Assembly: GCF_030684315.1 (NCBI RefSeq)
Contig: NC_081378.1
Span: 34,396,252-34,460,251, forward strand
DNA length: 64,000 nucleotides
Source of the DNA: Stegostoma tigrinum
Lineage: Eukaryota
Direction of reading: 5' to 3'
Shown piece by piece: positions 8,809 to 61,415 of the stretch. Every line of letters begins with the position of its first letter. Within the stretch, counting starts at the first letter, position 1. The notes beneath the pieces are model-generated. The model saw only the letters and a list, made by a program, of their open reading frames with translations, ran no database searches and was not told the DNA's origin. Made by a program: the position numbers and the translations under genes.

Positions 8809-8893
8809 CTTTCCGTCTCAACAGCAGCGCCGCTACAGCACTGTCCACACCTCCGGACAGGGCACACACCACATGCCGCAGCGGGCGGCTCAT
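8809..8893 (-). CDS. TRMU: Mitochondrial tRNA-specific 2-thiouridylase 1, coding exon 1 (remaining exons lie left of the window)
   Basis: Reverse strand reads [28 protein letters not shown](G) followed by G|gtgagg. It has the SGGVDS PP-loop and closely matches the human TRMU N-terminus. It lies in a CpG-rich patch and downstream of GTSE1 in the same orientation, as in human. No exon 2 was found in 1-8808. Confidence 0.96.
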
Positions 8894-10074: not shown

Positions 10075-10485
10075 GATGTGAGTTTGCTCGCTGAGCTGGA
10101 AGGTTTGTTTTCAGACGTTTCGTCATTTCCTGTTCTTTTTCTCAGAGGGTGGTAGATGGGCTCCAAAATCAATGTGTTTGTTGATGGCGCTCCGGAATGC
10201 TTCTAAGCATTCATGGCATTCCAACCGGAACTCCATCAACAAACACATTGATTTGGAGCCCATCTACCACCCTCTGAGAAAAAGAACAGGAAATGACATC
10301 ACCAACCCAAGGAAACCTAAACCGATAAATAGAAAGCGGGACATAACACCAGCGCTTCACCGGAGGCGCACTGATGATGTTACCTAGAATGGTGACAAAA
10401 CATCTGAAAACAAACCTTCCAGCTCAGCGAGCAAACTCACATCCAGAACCCCAACCTGAGCTACAAATCTTCTCAAAACTCACTA
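10075..10485. mobile_element. Foldback mini-PLE (Penelope/Poseidon type) with 13-bp TSD
   Basis: Left arm 10072-10200 is the reverse complement of right-arm segments within 10215-10446; AACTTGTCACCTG at 10062-10074 and 10486-10498; peptide remnant [18 protein letters not shown]. Confidence 0.85.
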
Positions 10486-12064: not shown

Positions 12065-15000
12065 GTCAGTACAATGAATGAATGCTTCTATGTTGTGTGT
12101 CTGTTTACTCCATATTTTGCAATACAGTAAATTGATGTGAATTTTTAGGTTTTTTAAAAATGCTGAAGGGAGACACTTTGCATAATTAATAGTTCAGAAT
12201 TCTTAGTTAAACTGTTAAACATTAATTTCAAAGTAATGTTATTCTTTTGTCATTATATTGGAGTTCTTGAACTAAAACATCATTTCAAAAAAAAAATATA
12301 AAGAAATTGTGCATAGCAGACCACGTTACTTTGATTAGTCTTTTATTAGCCCAAAATCTGACTTAACTACGTAGCTATCCACAGGCATTAGATAAAATGT
12401 AGCAAAATAGGGGATTGACAAGTCTGAAAGACTTGCATTTATTTACTGCTATCTTGTGAGCTACTGCTGTTTAGGGGTTTTACATTAGTGAAAAAAAAGT
12501 CAGCCAGAAATCTATGAATATAAATTAATTTACTGGCCTTAATACTGGCATAAGACGATCTCTAAAATTTTAAAAGATGCTCAGAAAACGGGAGCCAAAT
12601 TTTGAAACATTCATTCAATATGGCACACAATTAAATGCCTTCAATCCTAATAATATATAAACTTCTAATTATTTTGTAGGTTCATTCAAGATCAGAGGAG
12701 TAGCAAATCAGTTTTCCAAAAGAGAAACTGGGCACTTCATTACAATGTCAGCAGGAAATTACGGGAAAGCCTTTGCTTATGCTTTGAACCATTTTGGGCT
12801 TCGAGGAAAAGTACTAATGCCAGACACAGCACCAGCATCAAGGGCTGCCCTGATTGCTGTAAGCATGGGTATACATATTTGGTAACTTTGGAAAAGCCTA
12901 CATTTGAATTGAATCTAAACCTTTTCTGTAGCTAAAAAAGGACAAGAAAAGGCCGCTTAGCTGGAGGTAAAACAAGGATTTCCGAAGGTTTTGGAGTATA
13001 TCTGTAGCTCAGGTTGAGAGTATTGAGGTTGGTTGGCTTGCTGAGCTGGTTTGTTGTTCTGCAGACGTTTCGTTACCATGCTTGGTAACATCCTCAGTGC
13101 AGCCTCTGATAAAGCGCTGGTGTGTTTTCCACCTGGTTTTTAAACTCTGGGGTCCATTGCGATGGATTGCCTCACTTCCAGGTTTCCTCCACAGTGGAAC
13201 GTATATGGGGTTGAGTTCAATGTGTTTATTACTAGCCTGCTTCGTGGAGTGCCATGCTTCCAGGAATTTTCATGCTTGTCTCTGCCTAGCCTGTCCCAGG
13301 ATCTTGGGGTTGTCCCAGTTGAAGGCGTGGCTTTCCTTGTCCATGTGGATTGAGATGAGCGAGTATTGGTCGTGTCTTTTGTAGCCATTTGGTGTTCACG
13401 TACTCCCGTTGTTAGTTTCCTTCCTGTTTGTCCGATGTAGTGTTTCTCGCATTCTCTTCGGGGGATCTTGTAGCCGACATTGGTCCTGTCCATGGCAGGG
13501 AGTCTGTCTTTAGTTCAGGTGAGCACTTGTCATAGGGTTGACATGGGCTCGTGTGTGCCCCTCTGATGCCCAGCGGTCGTAGAAGCCTTGTGGTGAGTTC
13601 TGATGTGTTCCTGACACATTGTATTATGTTATCCATAACAAGTGTTCAACAATAATGGATATCCAAAGAACTGGGTCAGGTGATGCCTACAGGAACAGCA
13701 TCAGAAAGATTCTACCTGCCCCCACACACTCATCACACTATCCTATATCAGGTTACACTAAGTTACTTTTTTTTTTATACAGTCCAATCAAGCATAAGTA
13801 AAATCTAGAGAAGTTCACTCCTATTTAGCAGGCAAACCTCTGCAATTTCAATTTCAGGGATAGAAGCACATTTGTTTCTCTTAGATGACGAGGTGTAGAG
13901 CTGGATGAACACAGCAGCCCAAGCAGGATCAGAGGAATAGGAAGGTTGACGTTTTGGACCGAGACCCTTCTTCAGAAATGGGGGACAAGTTCTCCAGCAT
14001 CTGCAATTCCTATGGTCTCTGAAACAATTTAAACCCCGCTGCGAAGCCTCTTCTAAAAGGAGGCCTACCTTGAAGAAGTTACCCTCCTCCTTCTGGAATC
14101 CCCTTCCTCTCCCCCCATTTCTGAAGAAGGGTCTAGGCTGGAAACATCAGCCTTCCTGCTCCTCTGATTCTACTTGGCCTGCTGTGTTCATCCAGCTCTA
14201 TACCTTGCTATCTCAAATTCTCCAGCATCTGCACTTCCTACTATCTGTTTTTCCCTATACCAGTTTGACTTTCACTAAGTTGGCAGTTGCAAACAAACTC
14301 AACATGAAGGACAAGACTTTAATTAGCATCTACACAAAGCAACAAGTAATTCACATTGATCAGTCTGTAGCAATACAGCATTAGTTGGTGCTATTGCCAC
14401 AGCTGTGGCTGGGGCTATTCAAAGGACGAAAGAAACTCAAGTTCTACATCCTTAAAGCAGTTCCATGATATCCTAATCCTAGAGCAGGATTCCTGAATTG
14501 GGCAGAGAATTCACGTCGGCACTGCAAAAAGCAGACTGTTAAGAGTCACCCCAAGCTACAAAGAAACCGGAATGCTGAAAGTAAAGTAGACAGCTGCCGC
14601 TAGATACTAGAAAATTGCTTTAATCTTAAACCACATCACAGTCGTCTCAATACATAACCACATGGAGCCCGAGGAACACAGCAGTCCAGGCAGCATCAGA
14701 GGAGCAGGAAAGCTTATGTTTTGGGTTGGGACCCTTCCATGAAAGCAAGTCTGGCTGCAAAGTATTTCTAACACCTGGAGTATTTTGGTTTCAGTTTAAG
14801 TCCTGATTTCTGTTCCATTGCAGCTTTAACAAAATACAAGTATGTTGAAATAATGCATTGAAAAGTGGTAGCTCAGCTCTTGCAAAATATTTGTGACTAG
14901 ATAGTCTTCATCTGCTTAACGGCAAATATCTTGAAAAGATATATTTAAGAACTCCAAATTGTCAAAATAGTTTCTTAATTAGGAAAAATCGGATTTTCTC

Positions 15001-17664: not shown

Positions 17665-17751
17665 TTAAAACTTCAGTAAAGGAGAGTCCAAATTCACATT
17701 TTCCTTATTGGCAGGGCTCAACATAATCAGCGGAGAGTTGAAATCTATAAG
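17665..17751 (-). CDS. GTSE1: GTSE1 terminal exon
   Basis: LIDFNSPLIMLSPANKENVNLDSPLLKF-TAA, close to the human C-terminus. Confidence 0.95.
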   Translation of the reverse strand, partial: LIDFNSPLIMLSPANKENVNLDSPLLKF

Positions 17752-32700: not shown

Positions 32701-35700
32701 ACCACATGTTTAAAAGAAGACAAAGTCACTGTGGTATTTTATTTGATTTTGCATAACACAATAGTTGGATGTTTAATTGTTGTCTAGTGGATAAAGCTCA
32801 TTCAGCATCTGAACCTGTAAGCAACCAAAAACCACTGAAAAAAAAATTGTATTATTTACTCTCAACAGGAATAAAATTTTCATCCAGACTTGGACTCCAA
32901 AGCTGAATCAGATAACTAAACCATTCAAAAAGGAAAACAAGAACTATCATCGAACCACGTAACCATCCAAATAACCTGAAACCAACAATCACAAAATCAG
33001 TTACATTTCTTTAAGGATCTCTTGCTTTAGGCAAGTTCAATAACTAACATTTAGAACATGCTGAAGAGTTACACAGTATTATTTTCATATTAGAAATGTT
33101 TGGATAAATAAATCTTCCATATAACAAGCTCGTTGAGTGAACAAGAGTGGGATTGTGACAGAGGATTTCTAGTTCCTGTATAGAAATTTACCTACTTTTT
33201 ACCCAACGAAGGTAATTCATAGTGTGTGGCAGAGGTTCATAGTGGTGGTACTACAAATTCAGCAGGATACTGCCCAATACAGAAAAGAAGCACTAGAGCA
33301 ATTAAACTATTTTAGATTAGGATTGAAATTACAATGTAATAGATGTGCAGAACTGTAAAGATCGGGGGAATTTCGATCAGCACTATTTTTAGAAACAAAT
33401 CTAAAATGAGGCAATACAAAATAAGGGAGGTTTTTAAAAAAAAACACAAAGTTGATTTATAGTTACTTCATCAGTCACTTTTTGATACGGAAAACCAAAG
33501 GGTGGCAGACTGGTTAGCACTGCAACCACACAGCAGCAGGGACCTGGGTTCGATCCCAGCCTTGGAGGAGTCTGTGTGAAGTTTTCACATTCTCCCCGGA
33601 TCTACATGAGTTTCCACTGGGTCCTCTGGTTTATTCCCACATTCAAATGATGTGTGGTTAGGTGGTTTGGCCATGGTAAGCGCAGGGTTACAGTGATAGG
33701 GTTTGGGTGGGATCCTCAGAGTCAGTGCAGACTTGATGGGCCAAATTACCTTTTCCTGCCTTGTAGGATTCAATGATTCTACCCTGTCAACACTTCATTA
33801 GGTTAGATAAGTGGTTGAGGAAAATTATAAAGTAGCATTTCCACCCCCCCACCCCCAAAAGTAATTCTACACATGCACTGGGTGGTGGCTAAGCCGATTT
33901 AGAGTTCCATATAAAAGCATGAAATTTTTTTTAAAAAGTTCTCAAAACAAGCATTATTCAATTTAAATGCCGTCGAATGAAAACTTAACCACTGGATTTG
34001 AGAGATTGCTTTATTGGCATCATGGAAGGGGGCTTACAAATTATAGCTCAAATTTTTCCGTGAATGTTTGTGTCGGACGTTAAAAGGTCCCTACTAGAAA
34101 CTAATCTTTCTGAAAAAAAAAAGGGGGTCAGGAATGGAAGGAGGAGCAAATTATCTGGATCTCAGTGAATCTACCAACAAAATTATGGGGGTCAGAACCA
34201 GAAAATCTAAGTGCCACAACAAAAAAAGTTAACAGGTAGTTTTGAGGAATGGACAGTATTGTGTTTATACAGCAGGATCACAAAGGTGATGACCAGATCT
34301 TGCTCTTGCTGTAAAACTAAAAATATTTACTACAACAGCACAAACACTTGTATCCAGCCGATCACACTTACCAAAATGGTTAACATACATTAACATTAAC
34401 TCAACTGCAACAGTTAAATAACTTTATGGTTTTTGCAATGACACGTTGCTAGGGTTGTGGGCAAGGTTGTTAACTTGCTCGCCGAGATGGCTTGTTTTCA
34501 TTCAGATGCTTTTGCACCATGCTAAGTGACATCATCAGTGAGGGCTCTGAAGAAGTGATGTTGTTCTACTCTGCTTGGGATTTATACTGTCCGATCTGTT
34601 ATGGTAAATTGTGTCATTTCTGGTTCTGTTGTATATGGCATCCAATTCTATGTGTTTGTTGATTACATTATAGGGTTGAGAACCATGCCTGTAGGAATTC
34701 CTGAGGGTGTCCATGTTTGGCTTGGGCTACTATGGTTATGTTGGGAAAGTTCGTCATGTCGTTTTGCTGCTAGCCAATAAATTCCAAGTGGAGTAGAACA
34801 AAATCTCTTCATCGGAAACCTCACTGATAATGTTACTAGCATGGAGACAAAATGTCTGAATGAAAACAAGCCAGCTTGGCAAGCAAGTCAACAACAACCT
34901 CACTGAAGTTATTTGACAAGCCTCTAGTATTGGTTTAAATTGAGTTGCTTTACAAGGTAGAAAGCTGCTCACCTTTTCTGATGTAATGTATTTTGTTGGT
35001 GCACATTTTGATTGTTCAACTGATGGATTTTCTTTTAAAGTGTTGTTCTCAGTACAAGGCACATCATTATTCACGAATGATGAATTTCCACAGTTCTGCT
35101 GGGGCTGCATTAAAGAGTTGGTTTCCAGGATAGCAGTTTTCATTGGTTTTAACTGAAAGCTAGGTTGAGCCTCTAAGGAATTAACCTGCAGACGTTTCTG
35201 GATCGCAGGTGGAAGTAACCTCAATGGGCTATCTTGAACTACAAAAGTTTCTCTTCTTGCACAACTTGGGCTGCTCATACCCTTTAGAAGGGTTAGTTTT
35301 AATTTAGATTCCTCAATAAATTGTTCCACTATTTTATTGTGAGTCATTTGATTTCCCATTTTCTTACACTTTCCCTCCATCTGGTTTTCAAGGTGATGTG
35401 CTAATAAGTTGGCTTCTTTGGAAACTTCAAAGAACTGGTCTGTGTTCAAAGGACTCCAATTCCCAGTCTCTGTGGCCTTGGAACATTTCTCTTCCTTGCA
35501 ACTTAAATCAATTCCAACAGAGACACATTTTTCCACATGACGAACTGGTCCAAGAAAAACTTCATCATCATCATCACTTTTTCCACTAGGAAACAAAAAT
35601 GTTCCTAGTTTAAGATTTTATAATTACTTTTCGACATATAGTTCATATGCTTAAAGCTTGAAAATCCCTCAAATCGAGCATACTACTAAAAAAAACTTAA

Positions 35701-42951: not shown

Positions 42952-45517
42952 AAGCAGGAAAGCTGATGTTTCGTGCCTAGACCCTTCGTTGGAAATGGGG
43001 GAGGGGAAGAGTGTTCTGAAATAAATGGGAGGGAGGGGCTCACCTTTGTCCCCCTCCACCCACACATCAACGAATACCAATCACGTTTGGACATTGAGCA
43101 GTTTTTCCACGGCCTCCGCCTCCGTGCTTACTACTTTAACCCTCCCTCTACTAACCCCTTCTCCCGCCTCCAACACAAGCACTCCTCCTGGACACAATCC
43201 CAAGGCCTCCTACCCTCCCTTGATCTCTTCATCTCCAATTGCCGCCGAGGCATCAATCGCCTCAACCTCTCCCCCGCGGAATGTACAGCCCTCCGCTCCA
43301 ATCTCAAACTCACCATAAAACCCGTGGACAAGAGAGGCGCAGTTGTAGTATGGCGCACTGACCTCTAAATTGCTGAGGCCAGATGCCAACTCTCTGACAC
43401 CAACTCGTACCGTCCCCTGGATCATGACTCCATCCCTGAACACCAAACCATCATCTCCTAAACCATCCACAACCACATCACCTCACGTGACCTCCACACG
43501 GATAGCCTCCAACTTCATCGTTCCCCAACCCCACACCACCCGCTTCTGTCAACTTCCCAAAATCCATAAACCTGCCTGTCCTGGTCGACCCATTGTCTCC
43601 ACCCGCTCCTGCCCCACTGAACTCATCTCCACCTATCTGGACTCCATTTTCTCCCCCTTGGTCCAGGAACTCCCTACTTACATCCGTGACACCACCCACA
43701 CCCTCCACCTCCTCCAGAACTTCCAATTCCCCAGTCCACAACACCTCATTTTTACTATGGACATCCAGCCCCTATACACCTGCATTCCACATACAGATGG
43801 CCTAAAGGCCCTGTGCTTCTTCCTGTCCCGCACACCTGACCAGTTCCCCCTCCACTGACACCCTCATCCACTTAACCAAACTCGTTCGCACCCTCAATAA
43901 CTTCTTTATCAATTCCTCCCACTTTCTGCAGAAAAAGGGGTGGCCATGAGCACCCGCATGGGCCCAAGCTATGCCTGTCTCTTTGTAGGTTACATGGAAC
44001 AATCCCTCTTCCACACCTACACTGGCCCTAAGCCCCACCTCTTCCTCCGTTACATTGATGACTGTATCGGTGCCGCCTCCTGCTCCCACGAGGAGTTTGA
44101 ACAGTTCGTCCACTTCACCAACTTCTTCCACCGCAACCTTAAGTTTACCTGGACTATCTCTAACACCTCTCTCACCTTCCTGGACCCGTCTGTCTCCATC
44201 TCGGACAACCACCTAGAAAGTGATATCTCTTTCAAGCCCATCGACTCCCACAGCTACCTAGAATACACCTCCTCCCACCCACCTTCCCACAAAAATGCCA
44301 TCCCCTATTCCCAATTCCCTCGCCTCCGCTGCATCCCAGGATGAGGCATTCCACTCCTGTACATCTCAGATGTCCTCGTTTTTCAAGGACCGCAATCCCC
44401 CCCCCCCCACCGTAGTGGTCGAGAACGCCCTCGACCGTGTCTCCCGCATTTCCCACCACTCATCCCTCACACCCCCTCCCTGCAATAACAACCAAAAGAG
44501 AATCCCCCTCATCCTCACATACCACCCCACCAACCTCCGGATCCAACGCATCATCTTCCGACATTTCTGCCATCTGCAATCTGATCCCACCACCAAAGAC
44601 AATTTTCCTTCCCCACCCGTCTGCTTTCCAGATTGACCGCTCTCTCCGTGAGTCCCTTGTTCACTCCACACTCCCTTCCAGCCCCACCACACCTGTCCCT
44701 GCAACTGTAGGAGGTGCTACGCCTGCCCCAACACTTCCTCCGTCACCCTATCCCAGGACCCAAGAAGACTTTCCACATCAAGCAGAGGTTCACTTGCACA
44801 TCTGCTAATGTGGTATACTGCAACTGCTGTACCTGTTGTGGCCTCCTCTACATCAGGAAACCAAGCGGAGGCTTGGGGACTGCTTTGCAGAACACCTATG
44901 CTCAGTTCACAATAAACAACTGCACCTCCCAGTCACGAACCGTTTCAACTCCCCCTCCCATTCCTCAGACAACACGTCCATCCTGGGCCTCCTGCAGTGC
45001 CACAACAACGCTACCCAAAGGTTGCAGGAACAGCAACTCATATTCCGCTTGGGAACCCTGCAGCCCAATGGTATCAATGTGAATTTCACAAGCTTCAAAA
45101 TCTCCCCACACCCCCCCCCACTGCATCCTAAAACCAGCCCCAGCTCATCCCCACCTCCCTAACCTGTTCTTCCGCTCACCCATCCCCTCCTCCCACCTCA
45201 AGACACACCCTTATTTCCTACCTACTAACCTCATCCCGCCCCCCTGACCTGTCCATCCTCCCTACACTCACCTTTACTGGCTCCATCCCCGCCTCTTTAA
45301 CTTGTCTGTCTCCTCTCCAACTGCCTTCTCCTCTATCCGCCTCCCCTTCTCTCCCTATTATTTCAGAACCCTCTACTCCTCCCCCTTTTCTGATGAAGGG
45401 TCTCGGCCCGAAACGTCAGCTTTTGTGCTCCTGAGATGCTGCTTGGCCTGCTGTGTTCATCCAGCTCCCCACCTTGTTATCTCAGATTCTCCAGCATCTG
45501 CAGTTCCTATTATCTCT
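42952..45517 (+). mobile_element. Long 5'-truncated Neptune-type PLE (frameshifted RT + GIY-YIG) with inverted 5' pLTR piece and 15-bp TSD
   Basis: LPKIHKP..GRPIVS, MGPSYACLFVG, LRYIDD, FTCTSANVVYC..CGLLY, ETKRRLGD.FAEH; AATGTAAATACTTTG at 42937-42951 and 45518-45532; 42952-43015 is inverted. Confidence 0.92.
45388..45419 (+). ncRNA. Minimal hammerhead-like motif (Neptune-type PLE pseudo-LTR)
   Basis: CUGAUGA A GGGU cucg GCCC GAAAC GUC^AG; core and helix II intact, helix I only about 2 bp. Confidence 0.55.
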
Positions 45518-47042
45518 AATGTAAATACTTTGGTCTGTTTATCTTTTCTTTTGTATAATAAAACTTGTTTCATCGTTAAAACCAAATCTGCTGCACTGCA
45601 TGCTTAGGTTTGAGTGAAAGTCCACCAGTTTAAAATGGTCCACCGTGCCAAATGTCAGCCCAGAATCTGATTCATTCTGTAGCAATATCAGCTAGGATCA
45701 TAACGCATTAACCACAGCTTTAAGGGCTCCTTAATGCCATATTTGGTCAAATGGTGCCTTGTTAACCACTCACACACCTCTGGAATTCAGTTTCTTTTCA
45801 GTAGGTTTGAATGAAGGCTGTGCTGAAGTCTGGTAGTGTGTGCTTGTAGCAAAATTCAGACTGAGCATTGGTCATTGATTATTGCAAAAATATAAAAATA
45901 AATTGCTTCAATTAATTATACTGGTCCTTGAAATACTTTGAGAAAAGAAAAATCAGTGAAATGCCTATTTGAAGAACTAACACCAACATGATGGTTCAAA
46001 TGCCCTCCCTTCTGCATTGCAATAATTGAGATTGAGCACTTTTACAGAAAAGATTTTACAAAGCAATACCACAACACAGGAGAACATGGCCACCGTATTC
46101 TACAATGAGGTATTACCAAGTGAATGATTTAACAAACTAACTGTTTCTTTCCCCTCTAGTGATGGTTTGAGAGTCAGTACATATTTGTGAAGGGTGGGTC
46201 AGGTTTTCATTTACTAGCAGGGACCTTTTGCAAGTTCACGTACAAGATTCTGCACAAGGTTTGAAAAGTTTAAAGCACACAACTTATGTCAAGTTTAACG
46301 TGGGCTGGCAAAATAGGACTAAATAGAACACACCGATCAACAGGACATAACAATTTGTGATTCCATGCCAGTGATCTTCTGCAGGTCCTGTTTTTCCCTT
46401 CACTCTGTTATATCTTCCTAAGGTGCTATATCCAAATATGCAGATAACATTAGAGAGCATAGAAGATGTAGATAAGAGCACAAAGCTACACTGGAGTACA
46501 GACCAACCCAATGGCAAGTAATGCCAGATGGAGATTAATCTGGGAAAGGTTGAACAGGTGTGCTTATACCCAATGGGATTTAGAAGAATGAGAAATGATG
46601 AGTGACACAGAGATCCTGACAGCATTTGATAGTGCCGATGTCAAGAGGATGTCTCTCATTGAACTAAGGGACGTACTTTGAAAGGGTGACCTCTTGCCCT
46701 GAAACAAAGAACTAGGTTTTTTACCCCCCATGAAGGACATTACCGTGTGGCATTCTCTTGTCCAGAAAACAGTAGCAGCTGGGCAACTGAGTTTAATCAA
46801 GGTAGGGTTAGATTTCATTTTACAGTCAAGGGAGTCAAAGATTACTGATAGAAATGCAGGGTGCAGTGCACAGTCAAGAAAGTGCAATTGAGGCCATAAT
46901 TAGATTAGTCATAATTTTATTGAATGGCACAGCAGGCTCTCAGGGCCAAGTGGCCTACTCCTGCTGCAATTATTTTTCAATGTACCACATGAAAATGTCT
47001 TCATTAACTGTCAAGTGAGTATATAGCTTATCAGAGCAATTG

Positions 47043-47382: not shown

Positions 47383-50300
47383 CTAAAATGAATTCATAAC
47401 CAGATAGATCCAACAAAACAATTATTTTAGTACCCTGAATATTGAGTCATTAAATTGTATGAGTTGTTTATAATATTATCTTTTAAGAATAAGACTTAAA
47501 TTTGATTAAATTTTTAAATTTAAATAGGAAAGCTTCCAATAAATAACGTGTACAGAGCCTAAACCTAAAATTCATATGCCATACGTTTCTTTAAAAAAAA
47601 ACTGGTTGCAAAAATCCATACAACATCCCAATATCAAATCCAAGGCTGATGAAACTCTACTTTGATCCCCAGTTATTAATCTAAGATTATGTAGTGGGAC
47701 GTCAGGGGCGTTGAGATTCATTGGCATTGGGAGGGGGACCTGGAACTGGAAGGCAGTTGTGGCTCAAAATGGGTTTCCCCTCTTCCTTACTCTGCTTCGT
47801 CTCTTTCCCTGGTCATGGGTGGCTTCCTGATTCTTGGACTTCTTGTGCAACAGTTGCTGACATGGAAGCACAACAAAGATTTTCAATCACTGGGGACCCA
47901 ACAAATAATGGCCAAAAAGAAGTAGAAATCAGATGATCAGAATATCACACGGTCAAACCTGCAGGAATGCTTCAACTAGAGTTAGCAACCCAAGGCCTGA
48001 TCTCAGGATATTGCTGACCCAAATAACATGCATTTAGAGTAGAAATAATGAGAACTGCAGATGCTGGATAATCCAAGATAACAAAGTGTGAAGCTGATGA
48101 ACACAGCAGGCCCAGCAGCATCTCAGGAGCACAAAAGCTGACGTTTCGGGCCTGGACCCTTCAGAGAGGGGGATGGAGAGGGGGTTCTGGAATAAATAGG
48201 GAGAGTTGGGGAGAGGCGGACCGAAGATGGAGAGAAAAGAACATAGGTGGAGAGGGAGTATAGGTGGGGAGGTAGGGAGGGGATAGGTCAGTCCAGGAAA
48301 GACGGACAGGTCAAGGAGGCGGAATGAGGTTAGTAGGTAGAAAATGGAGGTGCGGCTTGGGGTGGGAGCAAGAGATAGATGAGAGGAAGAACAGGTTAGG
48401 GAGGCAGGAATAGGCTGGGCTGGTTTTGGGATGCGGTGGGGGGGGGCAGGGAGATTTTGAAGCTTGTGAAGTCCACATTGATAACCATTGGGCTGCAGGG
48501 TTCCCAAGCGGAATAGGAGTTGCTGTTCCTGCAACCTTCGGGTGGCATCATTGTGGCACTGCAGGAGGCCCATGATGGACACGTCGTCTGAGGAATGGGA
48601 GGGGGAGTTAAAATGGTTCGCGACTAGGAGGTGCAGTTGTTTATTGCGAACCGAGCAGAGGTGTTCTGCAAAGCAGTCCCCAAGCCTCTGCTTGGTTTCC
48701 CCAATGTAAAGGAAGCCACACCGGGTACAGTGGATACAGTATGCCACATTGGGAGATGTGCAGGTGAACATCTGCTTGATATGGAAAGTCATCTTGGGGC
48801 CTGGGATGGGGGTGGAGGTGGTGGTGTGGGGGCAAGTGTAGCACTTCCTGCGGTTGCAGGGGAAGGTGCTGGGTGTGGTGGGGTTGGAGGGCAGTGTGGA
48901 GCGAACAAGGGAGTCGCAGAGAGAGTGGTCTCTCCGGAAGGCAGACATGGGTGGGGATGGAAAATTGTCTTGGGTGGTGGGGTTGGATTATAGATGGCGG
49001 AAGTGTCGGAGGATGATGCGTTGTATCTGGAGATTGGTGGGGTGGTATGTAAGAACGAGGGGGATCCTTTTGGGGCGGTTGTGGCGGGGGCGGAGTGTGA
49101 GCGATGTGTTGCGGGAAATGCGGGCGACGCAGTCAAGGGCATTCTCGACCACTGCAGGGGGAAAGTTGCGGTCCTTGAAGAACGTGGACATCTGGGATGT
49201 GCGGGAGTGGAATGCCTCATCCTGGGTGCAGATGCGGCAGAGGCGGAGGAATTGGGAATAGGAGATGGAATTTTTGCAGGAGGGTGGGTGGGAGTGGGGT
49301 GGTGTATTCTAGGTAGCTGTGGGAGTTGGTGGGCTTGAAATGGACATCAGTTTCTAGCCGGTTACCTGAGATGGAGACTGAGGGATCCAGGAAAGTGAGG
49401 GATGTGTTGAAGATGGCCCAGGTGAACTTGAGGTTGGGTTGGAAGGTGTTGGTGAAGTGGATGAACTGTTCGAGCTCCTCTGGGGAGCAAGAGGCGGCGC
49501 CGATACAGGCATCAATGTAACAGAGGAAGAGGTGGGGTTTGGGTAGGTGTAGGTGCGGAAGAGGGACTGTTCAAAGTAACCACCTCAAGCCGCACCTCCA
49601 TTTCCTACCTACTAACCTCATCCTGCCTCCTTGACCTGTCCATCTTCCCTGGACTGACCTATCCCCTCCCTACCTATACTCTCCTCTCCACCTATCCTCT
49701 TTTCTCTCCATCTTCGGTCCGCCTCCCCCTCTCTCCCTATTTATTCCAGAACCCTCTCCCCATCACCCTGTGTGATGAAGGGTCTAGGCCTGAAACGTCA
49801 GCTTTTGTGCTCTGAAATGCTGCTTCACACTTTGTTATCTTGCATTTAGAATAGATTGGGTCATTGCAGTCGGAGTGCATATTTAGAATGTTTATAGACT
49901 AGGCACAGAGGTCACAGGAAAAAAACTATCATATGAAAAATATGCTTGGTAATCCACATGATCAAAAATTTATTACTTTAAAACCTTGGTTATATGGACA
50001 TTTCCCAGTTCCAGAAATCACACCCTTTAATATCCAATGTGTTGAGGATATGATAACCAAAATCTTAAACTGGCTCAAAATTTACATTCATAGACTGATA
50101 ATAAATAGCAAAAGTAGCAGGACTTACAAATGAAAGAAAATCTCTACTCTAAAATTAATAAAATCAATCTGTCATTGCTCGAGTTATTAGTTTTGTTGAA
50201 TTAATCATGTTGTTCAAAATGTGTCCATCCTGCCAACATTAACTTTGCCAACCACTCAAAAGCAAAGCAAAATTCTAAGAACCAATATATAAATTGGGAA

Positions 50301-59300: not shown

Positions 59301-61415
59301 CAGATCCAACAATTTCAGGGTGCTGTCCTTGTTGATGCTGTTGGCATCATGGGGGGCCTGCCTTCCTGATTTGTCCAGCAATGCAGCAATTGTCTCTTTA
59401 GCTAGGTCGATGTTTATGGATGTAAATGGTGCTGTTACATTGAAGGATATCATTGTCTCGTCCTCTTCTATTCTGGTGGCCTTGACGATATTGAGGAATT
59501 CTTATCAACTGAAAATGAGGATATACAAACACCAACTAGTCACCAAGAGACACAATCAGTTCTCACTGGTCTCAGTACACACAAACAAAGGAGGTCACAA
59601 ATTCAACTGGGACAACACATCCGTAATAGCACAAACCAAACAGAGGCACGCCAGGGAATTTCTGGAGGCCTGGTATTCCAACCGGAATTCCATCAACAAA
59701 CATATTGAACTGGACCCAATATACAAACCATTGAAACACAAAACTGAAAAAGTGATGCCAACCATCCCACCAAACCGAGGCATATAAGTAACAAGCAGGA
59801 GAGAACTTCAACACCTCACCAGAAGTGCACTGATGATGTTATCTAGCAGGGTGACGAAACATCTGCAATCAAACCCACTGGCTTGTCGAGCAAGTCTACA
59901 ACTTGGGTAAAAGTTTCCAGATCAGAAACAAAACATATCCTAATTTGTAGTATATAATTTACACCCACAAAAATAAATTAAATATAGTAAAATAATGACT
60001 GTTCTGACTTTGGTAAAGATTGACACTTACCGTGTTTCCCATTCACGTCCAACAAGATTAATAACAACATTGGAATGTTCCACAGCCCGTCTGGTGGAAT
60101 CTTTATCTCGAGGGTTCCAGTCCTGACAACGAAATTAATCTTATTAGAACACCAATTAAAAATTCAGCCAGTCTTTGAGACATTAGTGTCCAGCATTAGG
60201 GGAGACAATAGCTGGTGGTATTATCACTGGAATGCAAATCCAGAGACCCAGATAACCTTCTGGGGACCTGTGTTCAAATCCTGCCATGGCAGGATGTGGA
60301 ATGTGAATTCAAATTCAATAAATATCTGGAATTAAGAATCTAATGATGACCATGAATCCACTGCCAACTGTCAGGAAAAACCCATTTGGTTCATTAACAT
60401 CCTTTAGGGAAGGAAACTGCCATCTTTACCTGGTCTGGCCTCCACACTACTCCAGAACCACAGCAATGTGGTTGACTCTGAACTGCAACTCTGGGCAATA
60501 AATGCTGCCTGGCTAGTAATACCCTCATCCCGTAAAATGAAGAAAAAAAATGCTACGTCAATCCTGGCAATCCACCCCTCAAAATTAAGGCAGTTCAGCT
60601 TTTTGTACTTTCATTTGTTACTTGGTCGTTTCCACTTAATTTCTTAGCACTGGAGGTAGTTGCAAGGGGATTCTTTAATATGACTGCCTCCTTGTAGCTA
60701 AATCAGATTAGTCAATGCCAGCAATTTGAGATATGGAGAAATTACTGGGAAAATGGATTTAACCTTTATAGCAAGTCATTTAGGCTCCTTAAAATGCAGC
60801 CTTTAACACCCTTGTTATTTCAATCAGTTCCTTAGATTCAAATACTTTCACCATGCAGATTGCACGCTTCCTGATCATTCAATCCTGTCTTTCTCCTTTT
60901 GAATTGAATACTGACTCCTCAATTCAATATCACTTTCATAATATTAACTTTATGATGTGCTTAAAAAGTTATCTTCCCAATAGTTTCTAGTAGGGCATTA
61001 GTCCAAATCCAAACCATTAACAAACTAACTGGATGAAAAGAAAAATTTGAGTGTTGTTGCTTTTCCTGTTAGAAAACAGGTGACACATTTGCACATTGCT
61101 ACTTCTCCTAGAATAGCTCGATAATTTTACTTTCAGCTGCGTAGGGATGTCTTCAATTGCTGTTTGCCCCTTACAAGTGCATTTAAACCTGGTATTTCAG
61201 CACAAGCTGAAATTATAATACAAGCCGGCACTGATATCTTAAATATACTTTTGGAAACTCAAAACATCCAAGAGTTACATATTTCAAAATTTTCTTGCAA
61301 CAGTATTTGAGACTCACAAGAAAGGTCAGCTGTCCCAGATCACCCATGACTCTGAGATGATTGACATCGTATGGATCACAGCGATGTGGTATCACTACCT
61401 GAGAGCCAATTCGCC
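47215..61415 (-). CDS. NDUFA9: NADH:ubiquinone oxidoreductase subunit A9, exons 3-11 (exons 1-2 lie right of the window)
   Basis: Exons 61415-61318, 60122-60031, 55949-55808, 55704-55602, 54234-54164, 54074-53998, 52921-52826, 50812-50746, 47382-47215 are all GT-AG and in frame. Peptides [51 protein letters not shown] and AIEVLRRHR match NDUFA9. Confidence 0.97.
48044..49840 (-). mobile_element. Neptune-type PLE, 5'-truncated, with inverted 3'-end copy (49580-49840) and TSD
   Basis: ORF 48034-48948 has Cys-rich linker [10 protein letters not shown] and [24 protein letters not shown]; TGCATTTAGA(G/A)TAGA at 48029-48043 and 49841-49855. Confidence 0.92.
50746..50812 (-). CDS. NDUFA9: NDUFA9 exon 10
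   Basis: [22 protein letters not shown]|gtatgt. Confidence 0.95.
52826..52921 (-). CDS. NDUFA9: NDUFA9 exon 9
   Basis: [31 protein letters not shown]|gtgagt. Confidence 0.96.
53998..54074 (-). CDS. NDUFA9: NDUFA9 exon 8
   Basis: [25 protein letters not shown](G)|gtaagt. Confidence 0.96.
54164..54234 (-). CDS. NDUFA9: NDUFA9 exon 7
   Basis: [23 protein letters not shown]|gtatgt. Confidence 0.95.
55602..55704 (-). CDS. NDUFA9: NDUFA9 exon 6
   Basis: [34 protein letters not shown]|gtaagt. Confidence 0.96.
55808..55949 (-). CDS. NDUFA9: NDUFA9 exon 5
   Basis: [47 protein letters not shown]|gtaaga. Confidence 0.96.
56070..56720 (-). mobile_element. CR1-clade LINE 3' fragment
   Basis: [23 protein letters not shown] in ORF 56348-56626 and CR1-type tail. 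Confidence 0.8.
57468..57860 (+). mobile_element. tRNA-derived SINE with Deu-like central domain
   Basis: tRNA-like head gtggttcagttggtagc..ggtttaagtccc; body catctgtcctctcaagtgaa..gcactattttgaa; L2-like tail gtaaagctctttggaatg. Confidence 0.6.
58110..59900 (-). mobile_element. Penelope/Poseidon-type PLE (decayed RT + GIY-YIG) with inverted 3'-end copy (59500-59900)
   Basis: ORF 59091-59453 [28 protein letters not shown]; inverted arm; ACTT(A/G)GGTAAA at 58099-58109 and 59901-59911. Confidence 0.88.
59826..59867 (+). ncRNA. Minimal hammerhead ribozyme motif (PLE)
   Basis: UGCA CUGAUGA U GUUAUC uagcag GGUGAC GAAAC AUC^UGCA; core intact, helix III palindrome decayed to ACAU. Confidence 0.65.
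60031..60122 (-). CDS. NDUFA9: NDUFA9 exon 4
   Basis: [30 protein letters not shown]|gtaagt. Confidence 0.96.
60200..60545 (+). mobile_element. tRNA-derived SINE; related copies near 22600-22800 (plus), 31720-32015 (minus) and 52100-52380 (minus)
   Basis: tggtattatcactgg..atccagaga..tgttcaaatcc head and aatgctgcctggc tail recur in the window. Confidence 0.65.
61318..61415 (-). CDS. NDUFA9: NDUFA9 exon 3
   Basis: [32 protein letters not shown]|gtgagt. Confidence 0.96.

What the first reader, a model, noticed from the sequence alone, without database searches (positions are those of the whole stretch)
13059..13102. Complete minimal hammerhead ribozyme in an intronic Penelope element
Seen (minus strand): CUGCA-CUGAGGA-U-GUUACC-aagcau-GGUAAC-GAAAC-GUC^UGCAG, with all conserved core bases, a perfect 5-bp helix I, a perfect 6-bp helix II, one extra U after A9 and a self-complementary ACGU instead of helix III. 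Homologous copies keep the pairing: helix I is UCA/UGA near 34500-34540 versus UGCA/UGCA at 59826, and helix II varies GUUACC/GGUAAC, GUUACC/GGUGAC, GUUAUC/GGUGAC. Known: PLE pseudo-LTRs carry minimal type I hammerheads proposed to cleave as dimers. I do not know whether this shark family has been described.
Basis: partly seen in the sequence, partly recalled or inferred. Interest (0 to 1): 0.7.

Follow-up and report, generated by a model that had tools for sequence, protein, structure and literature searches.

The report
Fossil Penelope hammerhead between shark genes
This is a real but well-known type of small RNA motif, predicted to cut itself, left at the end of a broken jumping-gene copy that lies between two shark genes and likely does nothing there; in the intact jumping gene the motif also holds the stop codon and the likely start codon, so a cut would remove the start of the gene's only protein.

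Summary
The 44-nt motif is there letter for letter (13102-13059, minus strand). It is a minimal type I hammerhead of the kind published for Penelope-like elements (PLEs), at the 3' end of a truncated, frameshifted Poseidon-type copy. It is not in a coding intron: it lies between the GTSE1 stop (17665) and the TRMU start (8893) of a genome whose GTSE1 is labelled zebra shark. The 'perfect' helix I is a CpG-decay accident (the family has a U-G pair there). Copies lose hammerhead letters as fast as flanking letters, so this intact copy is a chance survivor among 11,042 core-pattern matches. Across four sister subfamilies, helix I and helix II each keep one pair through base changes, which is modest support. 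In the family majority, the 'extra U' belongs to an AUG that opens an 829-codon RT-endonuclease frame. That frame's stop is the UGA of the next hammerhead core, so a cut would sever the start codon. An ORF start at stem II is published for the anole element PAc. Cleavage was not tested here. This scan has noted shark PLE hammerheads and the start/stop overlap before on other DNA. New member of a known kind; low interest.

The parts
13059..13102 (-). Minimal type I hammerhead motif (helix I 5 bp, core CUGAGGA, extra U, helix II 6 bp with 6-nt loop, GAAA, ACGU palindrome, predicted cut between 13064 and 13063)
13094..13096 (-). UGA = U4-G5-A6 of the core; in the family majority it is the stop (codon 830) of the RT-endonuclease frame
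   Evidence: 19 of 26 natural family-A copies have the endonuclease EAW motif in this frame, 11 of them with no stop in between
13089..13091 (-). AUG = A9 + extra U + G10.1; likely start codon of the 829-codon frame in full-length sisters (use as start is inferred)
12985..13023 (-). About 37-nt optional PLE 'tail'; sister copies end near 13023 or at 12985
   Evidence: tail described in PMC11167929 and PMC8557442
12985..13614 (-). 5'-truncated Poseidon-type PLE remnant: codons ~657 onward (GIY-YIG endonuclease, YIGQTGR motif) through hammerhead and tail; 91% identical to the family majority, three frameshifting indels (~13551, ~13376, ~13130)
13639..13752 (+). Inverted 5' piece of the same element (codons ~621-658)
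17665..17751 (-). Context: last coding exon and stop of GTSE1 (4.6 kb upstream of the motif, same strand)
8809..8893 (-). Context: first coding exon of a TRMU-like gene (SGGVDS motif; 4.2 kb downstream of the motif, same strand; exon end approximate)

Best explanation
The motif is the minimal hammerhead that sits in the terminal repeat of a Poseidon-type Penelope-like retrotransposon, here in a truncated, frameshifted copy between GTSE1 and TRMU that is likely inert and likely kept its intact core by chance. How it works (steps marked): SHOWN - full-length sisters are ~2.49-kb units with this motif at both ends. One frame runs from the AUG inside the 5' motif to the UGA inside the 3' motif, leaving 2 non-coding bases per unit. 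SHOWN - helix III is reduced to a self-complementary ACGU, so a lone RNA cannot close it. INFERRED from PMC4209133 and PMC11167929 - in the active parent the motif cut slowly after GUC, only when paired with a second copy and/or folded by the element's own protein. INFERRED - that cut falls 28 nt after the A of the AUG and would remove the start codon from the message. INFERRED - reverse transcription began downstream at the two tail positions and ran through the site, so copies like this one came from uncut (or re-joined) RNA. INFERRED - once in the genome the motif was under no selection.
For: Motif exact, 0 of 100 shuffles. 10 of 20 hand-picked loci show 5' and 3' motifs 2,350-2,711 nt apart. 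Column majority of 17 rows: first stop at codon 830 in the AUG frame against 44 and 23 stops in the other frames, with RT and endonuclease motifs in frame. A natural 424-aa piece matches Pfam RVT_1, E 2e-8. No CX2-5CxxC linker between RT and endonuclease, the Poseidon state in PMC8557442. Two 3' ends at about +70 and +107 from the AUG; PAc starts RT at +111-118 with a 30-40-nt tail. Neutral decay: non-CpG changes 41/1102 in the motif against 122/3172 in flanks, p=0.93; CpG 71/266 against 126/514, p=0.54; core intact in 8 of 38 copies, all pairs too in 4 of 38. 11,042 core-pattern matches with AUG genome-wide, control 3; 247 of this subfamily type; 6 exact 44-mers. Subfamily pairs: helix I G-C/U-A, helix II U-A/U-G/C-G.
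Against: No cleavage, transcript or translation data. The dimer fold is not favoured by nearest-neighbour energies (-24.7 against -30.6 for two monomer minimum-energy folds and -38.1 kcal/mol for an alternative duplex), and helix I has probability only 0.06-0.20 in flanking context. Covariation is thin: 1 of 11 pairs shows a two-sided change against the commonest pair, rows are related and hand-picked, and helix I is paired in only 69% of cells. Helix I is 3 bp in three subfamilies and 2 bp in some copies. The 829-codon frame is a column majority, not one intact copy. The 38 copies used for the decay test were the top hits to this copy. Rfam finds no hammerhead here. No Pfam family matched the window's own endonuclease piece.
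Confidence: 0.8

Rival explanations
1. The overlap of start, stop and hammerhead is only tight packing of a very compact element: the motif processes tandem precursor RNA (or makes circles) and the codons happen to fall in it, with no regulatory link.
For: The stop moves: core UGA in subfamilies A and D, a loop-II UAG in B and C. Other PLE hammerheads have A or C as the extra base (PMC4209133 Fig. S3), as do 138,921 matches in this genome. ORF starts inside pLTRs are already described (PMC3846280). Catalytic mutants did not affect PAc insertion in vitro.
Against: The AUG at A9 and its frame are kept in all four subfamilies, and the stop stays inside the motif in all four despite a 1-nt shift. 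A liver-fluke protein (P0031) and an unnamed one (P0033) begin with a similar peptide.
Confidence: 0.55
2. The shape is kept as a structural or protein-coding signal (binding site for the element's protein, N-terminal peptide) and does not cut in vivo.
For: Published min-HHRs are inactive as monomers and weak as dimers. No RNA-seq reads ended at the PAc cut site. No fragment began at the cut among 125 family-A-query and 74 family-B-query hits. Short helix I in several sublineages.
Against: All catalytic core letters are kept in the four subfamily majorities apart from CpG-prone columns (25 of 34 columns invariant against 34 of 80 in the upstream spacer). Helix II pair 3 changes Leu to Ser yet stays paired. 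PAc cleavage depends on C3 and G8.
Confidence: 0.2
3. This particular copy has been co-opted by the host, for example to cut GTSE1 read-through RNA before it reaches the TRMU promoter.
For: It is on the same strand as both genes, between them, and has an intact core and both helices. Its junction is present in both samples laid.
Against: About 1 in 10 top-hit sisters is equally intact (4 of 38). No same-strand partner in the window passes the descriptor. AATAAA lies 300 nt past the GTSE1 stop. Helix I is weak in context.
Confidence: 0.04

Closest known systems
Minimal hammerheads (min-HHR) of metazoan PLE pseudo-LTRs, especially the Clonorchis sinensis Cercyon-type entry of Fig. S3 (Cervera and De la Pena 2014, PMC4209133; read parts 1-2 of 4 of the text and supplement file 2 parts 1-2 of 3; supplement file 1 was not searchable)
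   Same: Core CUGANGA, one extra base before G10.1, long helix II, short helix I, palindromic 15.2-16.2, mostly solitary truncated copies. The Clonorchis entry has the same UGCA/UGCA helix I, extra U, 6-bp helix II and 6-nt loop.
   Different: No cartilaginous fish in Table S1 or the Fig. S3 list as read. The passages read do not note that the extra U forms an AUG. Counts here (11,042 + 138,921 pattern matches, no pairing test) exceed their ~4,000 (coelacanth) and ~9,000 (Xenopus), with different descriptors.
PAc, Poseidon element of Anolis carolinensis (Frangieh et al. 2024, PMC11167929; read the main-text section whole and passages of methods; the GenBank supplement could not be read)
   Same: [quoted passage not shown]
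   Different: PAc is described with a pLTR of at least 145 nt ahead of the ORF start. Here the family majority leaves 2 nt between stop and start. Whether PAc's stop is also inside its hammerhead could not be checked. PAc cleavage was shown (protein-assisted); this one was not tested.
Non-LTR retrozymes of animals (PMC7229834 and bioRxiv 10.64898/2026.07.22.740005; passages only)
   Same: Type I hammerheads in mobile repeats, dimer-dependent in vertebrates; the preprint reports retrozymes in one cartilaginous fish and derives them from PLEs.
   Different: Those are short non-coding tandem repeats; this is the end of a protein-coding 2.5-kb element with no helix III stem.

Membership tests
PLE minimal type I hammerhead (PMC4209133) | Core boxes CUGANGA, GAAA, UH intact | tested here: met
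PLE minimal type I hammerhead (PMC4209133) | Extra base between A9 and G10.1; G10.1-C11.1 pair | tested here: met
   U13090; G13089-C13072
PLE minimal type I hammerhead (PMC4209133) | Helix III replaced by a palindrome | tested here: met
   ACGU at 13068-13065
PLE minimal type I hammerhead (PMC4209133) | Located in both terminal repeats of an RT + GIY-YIG element | tested here: met
   10 of 20 hand-picked loci with both copies; frame content
PLE minimal type I hammerhead (PMC4209133) | Compensatory changes in helices I and II | tested here: inconclusive
   One pair in each helix across four subfamilies; score 0.196 against 0.156 +/- 0.015, 1 of 500 shuffles, but only 1 two-sided pair and related, hand-picked rows
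PLE minimal type I hammerhead (PMC4209133) | Self-cleavage after H17 (dimer or protein-assisted) | not testable with these tools
   No assay; dimer fold not favoured by folding energies
Rfam hammerhead families | Score at the gathering threshold | tested here: not met
   No match in the window; no hammerhead at E<=10 in 12.5-14.5 kb
Penelope/Poseidon clade of PLEs (PMC8557442) | [quoted passage not shown] | tested here: met
   (family majority); Pfam RVT_1 on a natural piece, GIY-YIG only weak at E 0.08 in a sister
Penelope/Poseidon clade of PLEs (PMC8557442) | No CX2-5CxxC zinc-finger linker (present in Neptune/Nematis) | tested here: met
Penelope/Poseidon clade of PLEs (PMC8557442) | Partial tandem and inverted copies, optional 30-40-nt tail | tested here: met
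Penelope/Poseidon clade of PLEs (PMC8557442) | RT tree places it in the clade | not tested
   No named reference PLE set was on hand; nearest proteins found are tapeworm and fluke RTs at 44-48% identity
Non-LTR retrozyme | Short non-coding tandem repeat with canonical hammerhead | tested here: not met
   Solitary end of a coding 2.5-kb element

The most novel reading that the evidence does not exclude
In this shark/fluke branch of Penelope-like elements the hammerhead is a translation switch. It holds stop, start and cut site within about 34 nt, so uncut RNA is the message, binding of the element's own protein triggers the cut that removes the AUG (negative feedback), and a unit cut at both ends regains its whole reading frame only by closing into a circle. 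This would give PLE hammerheads a function and make the ~2.49-kb unit a nearly all-coding RNA.
Probability: 0.2. Interest if true: 0.65.

Novelty: new member of a known kind. Interest (0 to 1): 0.25.

Why it matters
The copy itself likely matters little. The family bears on an open question: what PLE hammerheads do (PMC8557442 calls it unclear; PAc catalytic mutants still insert in vitro). Stop, start and cut site in one 34-nt motif give a clean reporter test of whether cutting controls translation. The genome also holds about 150,000 minimal-hammerhead core patterns, a large source of natural variants.

Tried and rejected
Rfam scans: no hammerhead model matched. Intron location: rejected for coding exons. 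Expression: no RNA holder listed; contigs of 2 of the 4 listed runs (two samples, one study) bridge the 3' junction but cannot show RNA ends. Fragments starting at the predicted cut: none among the hits (125 and 74 hits, overlapping sets, Poseidon-type families only). An apparent start cluster 25-26 nt before C3 (9 hits) scattered when other copies were used as the query and included subfamily-B cross-hits. A general AUG-in-core signature among PLE proteins: my pattern hit 2 of 110 homologues against 26 of 1,507 internal Met positions, so no enrichment. P0031 was seen by eye and missed by the pattern; P0030 is likely chance. Horizontal transfer from flatworms: not claimed, 43-48% protein identity, and the search covered only proteins of 743-2,120 aa. 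A search for further AUG-type families with other helix II letters gave 615 matches, and the first 100 listed are mostly single uncompensated changes. Subfamily tree: too weak to count independent pair switches (14:9:8 sites). An intact full-length copy: none seen among 128 scored matches, longest open frame 438 aa, but the query was only the C-terminal 310 aa. Literature searches for a shark description: 'hammerhead + Penelope', 'hammerhead ribozyme + shark', 'Penelope-like + pLTR + start codon + hammerhead', 'Penelope + shark genome + transposable elements', 'Poseidon + retrotransposon + ORF + overlap + pLTR', 'hammerhead/Penelope/elasmobranch', 'Cercyon + Penelope'. None listed a paper on this family or on the stop codon inside the core; Repbase, Dfam and most subscription papers were not searchable, and unread supplements (PAc GenBank file, bioRxiv tables) may hold it. 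No protein fold or complex jobs were run.

Full report
1. Observation. The minus strand from 13102 to 13059 reads exactly as reported. A descriptor for core boxes plus helices I and II found three sites in the window with at least 3 bp in each helix (13097-, 8187+, 59830+). Only 13097 has helix II >= 6 and helix I >= 5, which 0 of 100 shuffled windows gave. The 44-mer folds at z = -3.1. Rfam has no match at gathering level in the window and no hammerhead at E <= 10 around the site. Seven more homologous pieces lie in the window.

2. Host context. The exon at 35 kb matches Pfam GTSE1_N and is 100% identical to a protein labelled Stegostoma tigrinum GTSE1. Its coding exons run 37271 to 17668, stop 17667-17665. 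A TRMU-like first exon starts at 8893 in a CpG-rich stretch, and three PF03054 matches lie further along beyond the window. The motif is therefore between the two coding regions, on their strand. Untranslated exons could not be tested.

3. The element. A genome search with 661 nt gave 8,384 first-look candidates; 40 were scored and the best other copy is 89% identical. I walked upstream and fetched 20 of 25 loci, chosen by hand for signs of a 5' repeat. Ten of the 20 carry a forward motif at both ends, 2,350-2,711 nt apart. In the column majority of 17 rows (three loci lacked a 3' hit) the unit is 2,492 nt. The frame opened by A9-U-G10.1 has its first stop at codon 830, against 44 and 23 stops in the other frames, and holds the RT motifs (416, 479, 511) and the endonuclease motif (715). 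Codon 830 is U4-G5-A6 of the 3' motif (17, 15 and 16 of 17 rows), followed by 2 nt and the next AUG. A natural 424-aa piece matches RVT_1. There is no CX2-5CxxC linker, the Penelope/Poseidon state in PMC8557442 (passages). Copies differ from the majority by 5-9% at non-CpG and 20-40% at CpG sites. The window copy spans 13614-12985, with an inverted 5' piece at 13639-13752 and three frameshifting indels. Sisters end at two places about 37 nt apart, the PLE tail, which in PAc marks two RT start sites (PMC11167929).

4. Is this copy special? No sign of it. Among 38 sister motifs in 29 loci, position 13060 is G in 23 and A in 14, so the family's helix I has a U-G pair and the window's U-A comes from CpG decay. 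Motif columns change as fast as flanks (non-CpG 41/1102 against 122/3172, p = 0.93; CpG 71/266 against 126/514, p = 0.54). Eight of 38 keep the core and 4 of 38 keep all pairs as well. These were top hits, which biases toward low divergence. Genome-wide there are 11,042 exact matches to the AUG-type core pattern (control 3), mostly the younger subfamily B among the 100 listed; 247 have this subfamily's core and helix II; 6 have the exact 44-mer.

5. Selection on the parents. Majorities of four subfamilies (29, 19, 19, 19 rows) keep the core apart from CpG-prone columns, the extra U and the AUG frame. The core region is 79-91% identical between them, against 54-73% for the upstream spacer. Helix I pair 3 is G-C (A, C) or U-A (B, D). 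Helix II pair 3 is U-A (A), U-G (B, C) or C-G (D), the last with a Leu-to-Ser change. On 24 hand-picked natural rows, helix II is paired in 100% of cells and helix I in 69%; the covariation score is reached by 1 of 500 shuffles, but only one pair has a two-sided change against the commonest pair, and the rows are related. Against a strict structure: helix I is 5 bp only in A; 4 of 59 B copies have G at the third 5' position without a partner, and 4 D-like copies have only 2 bp.

6. Start and stop. The endonuclease frame runs into the motif in all four subfamilies. It stops at the core UGA in A and D and at a loop-II UAG in B and C. Natural copies agree: B 12 of 12 with no stop, A 19 of 26 in the UGA frame (11 with no stop), C 5 of 5 (2 with no stop), D 2 of 2. 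The Clonorchis min-HHR in Fig. S3 of PMC4209133 has the same layout and, by my reading, would give the same AUG frame. A Dicrocoelium protein starts MPPRMVVKRL and an unnamed one MMSSRLVTKRL. Across all 110 homologues the signature is not enriched, so this holds for a sub-branch at most. An ORF start at stem II is published for PAc and ORF starts inside pLTRs for rotifer elements (PMC3846280, passages). I found no paper on the stop inside the core (searches listed under Tried and rejected).

7. Mechanism. A monomer cannot close helix III. The strand-swapped dimer scores -24.7 kcal/mol, against -30.6 for two free minimum-energy folds and -38.1 for an alternative duplex. In flanking context helix I has probability 0.06-0.20, while helix II stays at 0.6-1.0. 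This fits the published low activity of min-HHR dimers and the protein requirement of PAc; the energy model ignores tertiary contacts and Mg2+. The cut would fall 28 nt after the A of the AUG, and the next Met is codon 43. RT starting at the tail must cross the site, so complete copies imply uncut or re-joined templates (inference), as in PAc in vitro. I saw no fragment starting at the cut. Viral hammerheads can promote translation, with the one mapped cut upstream of the start codon (PMC13725137, abstract and passages); here the cut is downstream, so the expected effect is the opposite.

8. Verdict. A real, ordinary member of a class published in 2014, in a lineage not listed in the parts of that paper I read, in a likely inert copy. 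The start/stop overlap is real and testable, partly published, and noted earlier by this scan (unchecked notes, not support). Interest 0.25.

Noticed in passing
window 45390-45417 (+), element ~43000-45520 (+) and ~48030-49580 (-); G000 genome-wide: A second, Neptune-like PLE family (CxxxxCxxC linker in the 48034-48987 frame) carries another minimal hammerhead core. The pattern with an extra base other than U has 138,921 matches, control 39. Helix II is 4 bp plus a tetraloop; helix I was only 2 bp in 20 of 24 sampled. With the 11,042 AUG-type matches this is about one per 21 kb, against 126,247 canonical motifs in the ~28-Gb axolotl genome (PMC7229834; different descriptors, no pairing test in my count).
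   Followed up: partly
window 10214-10480 (+); L086-L104, L145-L174: Subfamily B is much younger (sisters 93-97% identical) and dominates the intact cores; it is the better source for bench tests.
   Followed up: partly
P0031, P0033; PMC4209133 Fig. S3: Nearest annotated proteins are from tapeworms and flukes (44-48% in RT), and the Clonorchis hammerhead is close to the shark one; shared ancestry or old transfer was not resolved.
   Followed up: partly
window 13114-13103 and 13046-13036 (-): Two short hairpin-like stretches flank helix I in all four subfamily majorities (CUUC-4 nt-GAGG upstream, GCUC-3 nt-GAGC downstream); they could stand in for loop I or reflect coding. Not tested.
   Followed up: no
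L054, L155/L156, L161/L162, L173, L180, L204: Head-to-head inverted pairs of hammerhead ends only 30-100 nt apart are common, in line with the palindromic junctions described in PMC3846280.
   Followed up: no
window 8187 (+), 34520 (-), 34860 (+): Other decayed copies do lie inside genes: 8187 downstream of the first TRMU exon on the opposite strand, 34520 and 34860 in a GTSE1 intron.
   Followed up: partly
window 31637-31494, 26702-26622, 24458-24210 (-): GTSE1 isoforms differ: an exon present in whale shark and bamboo shark proteins matches here but is absent from both zebra shark isoforms, and the two isoforms use different middle exons.
   Followed up: no
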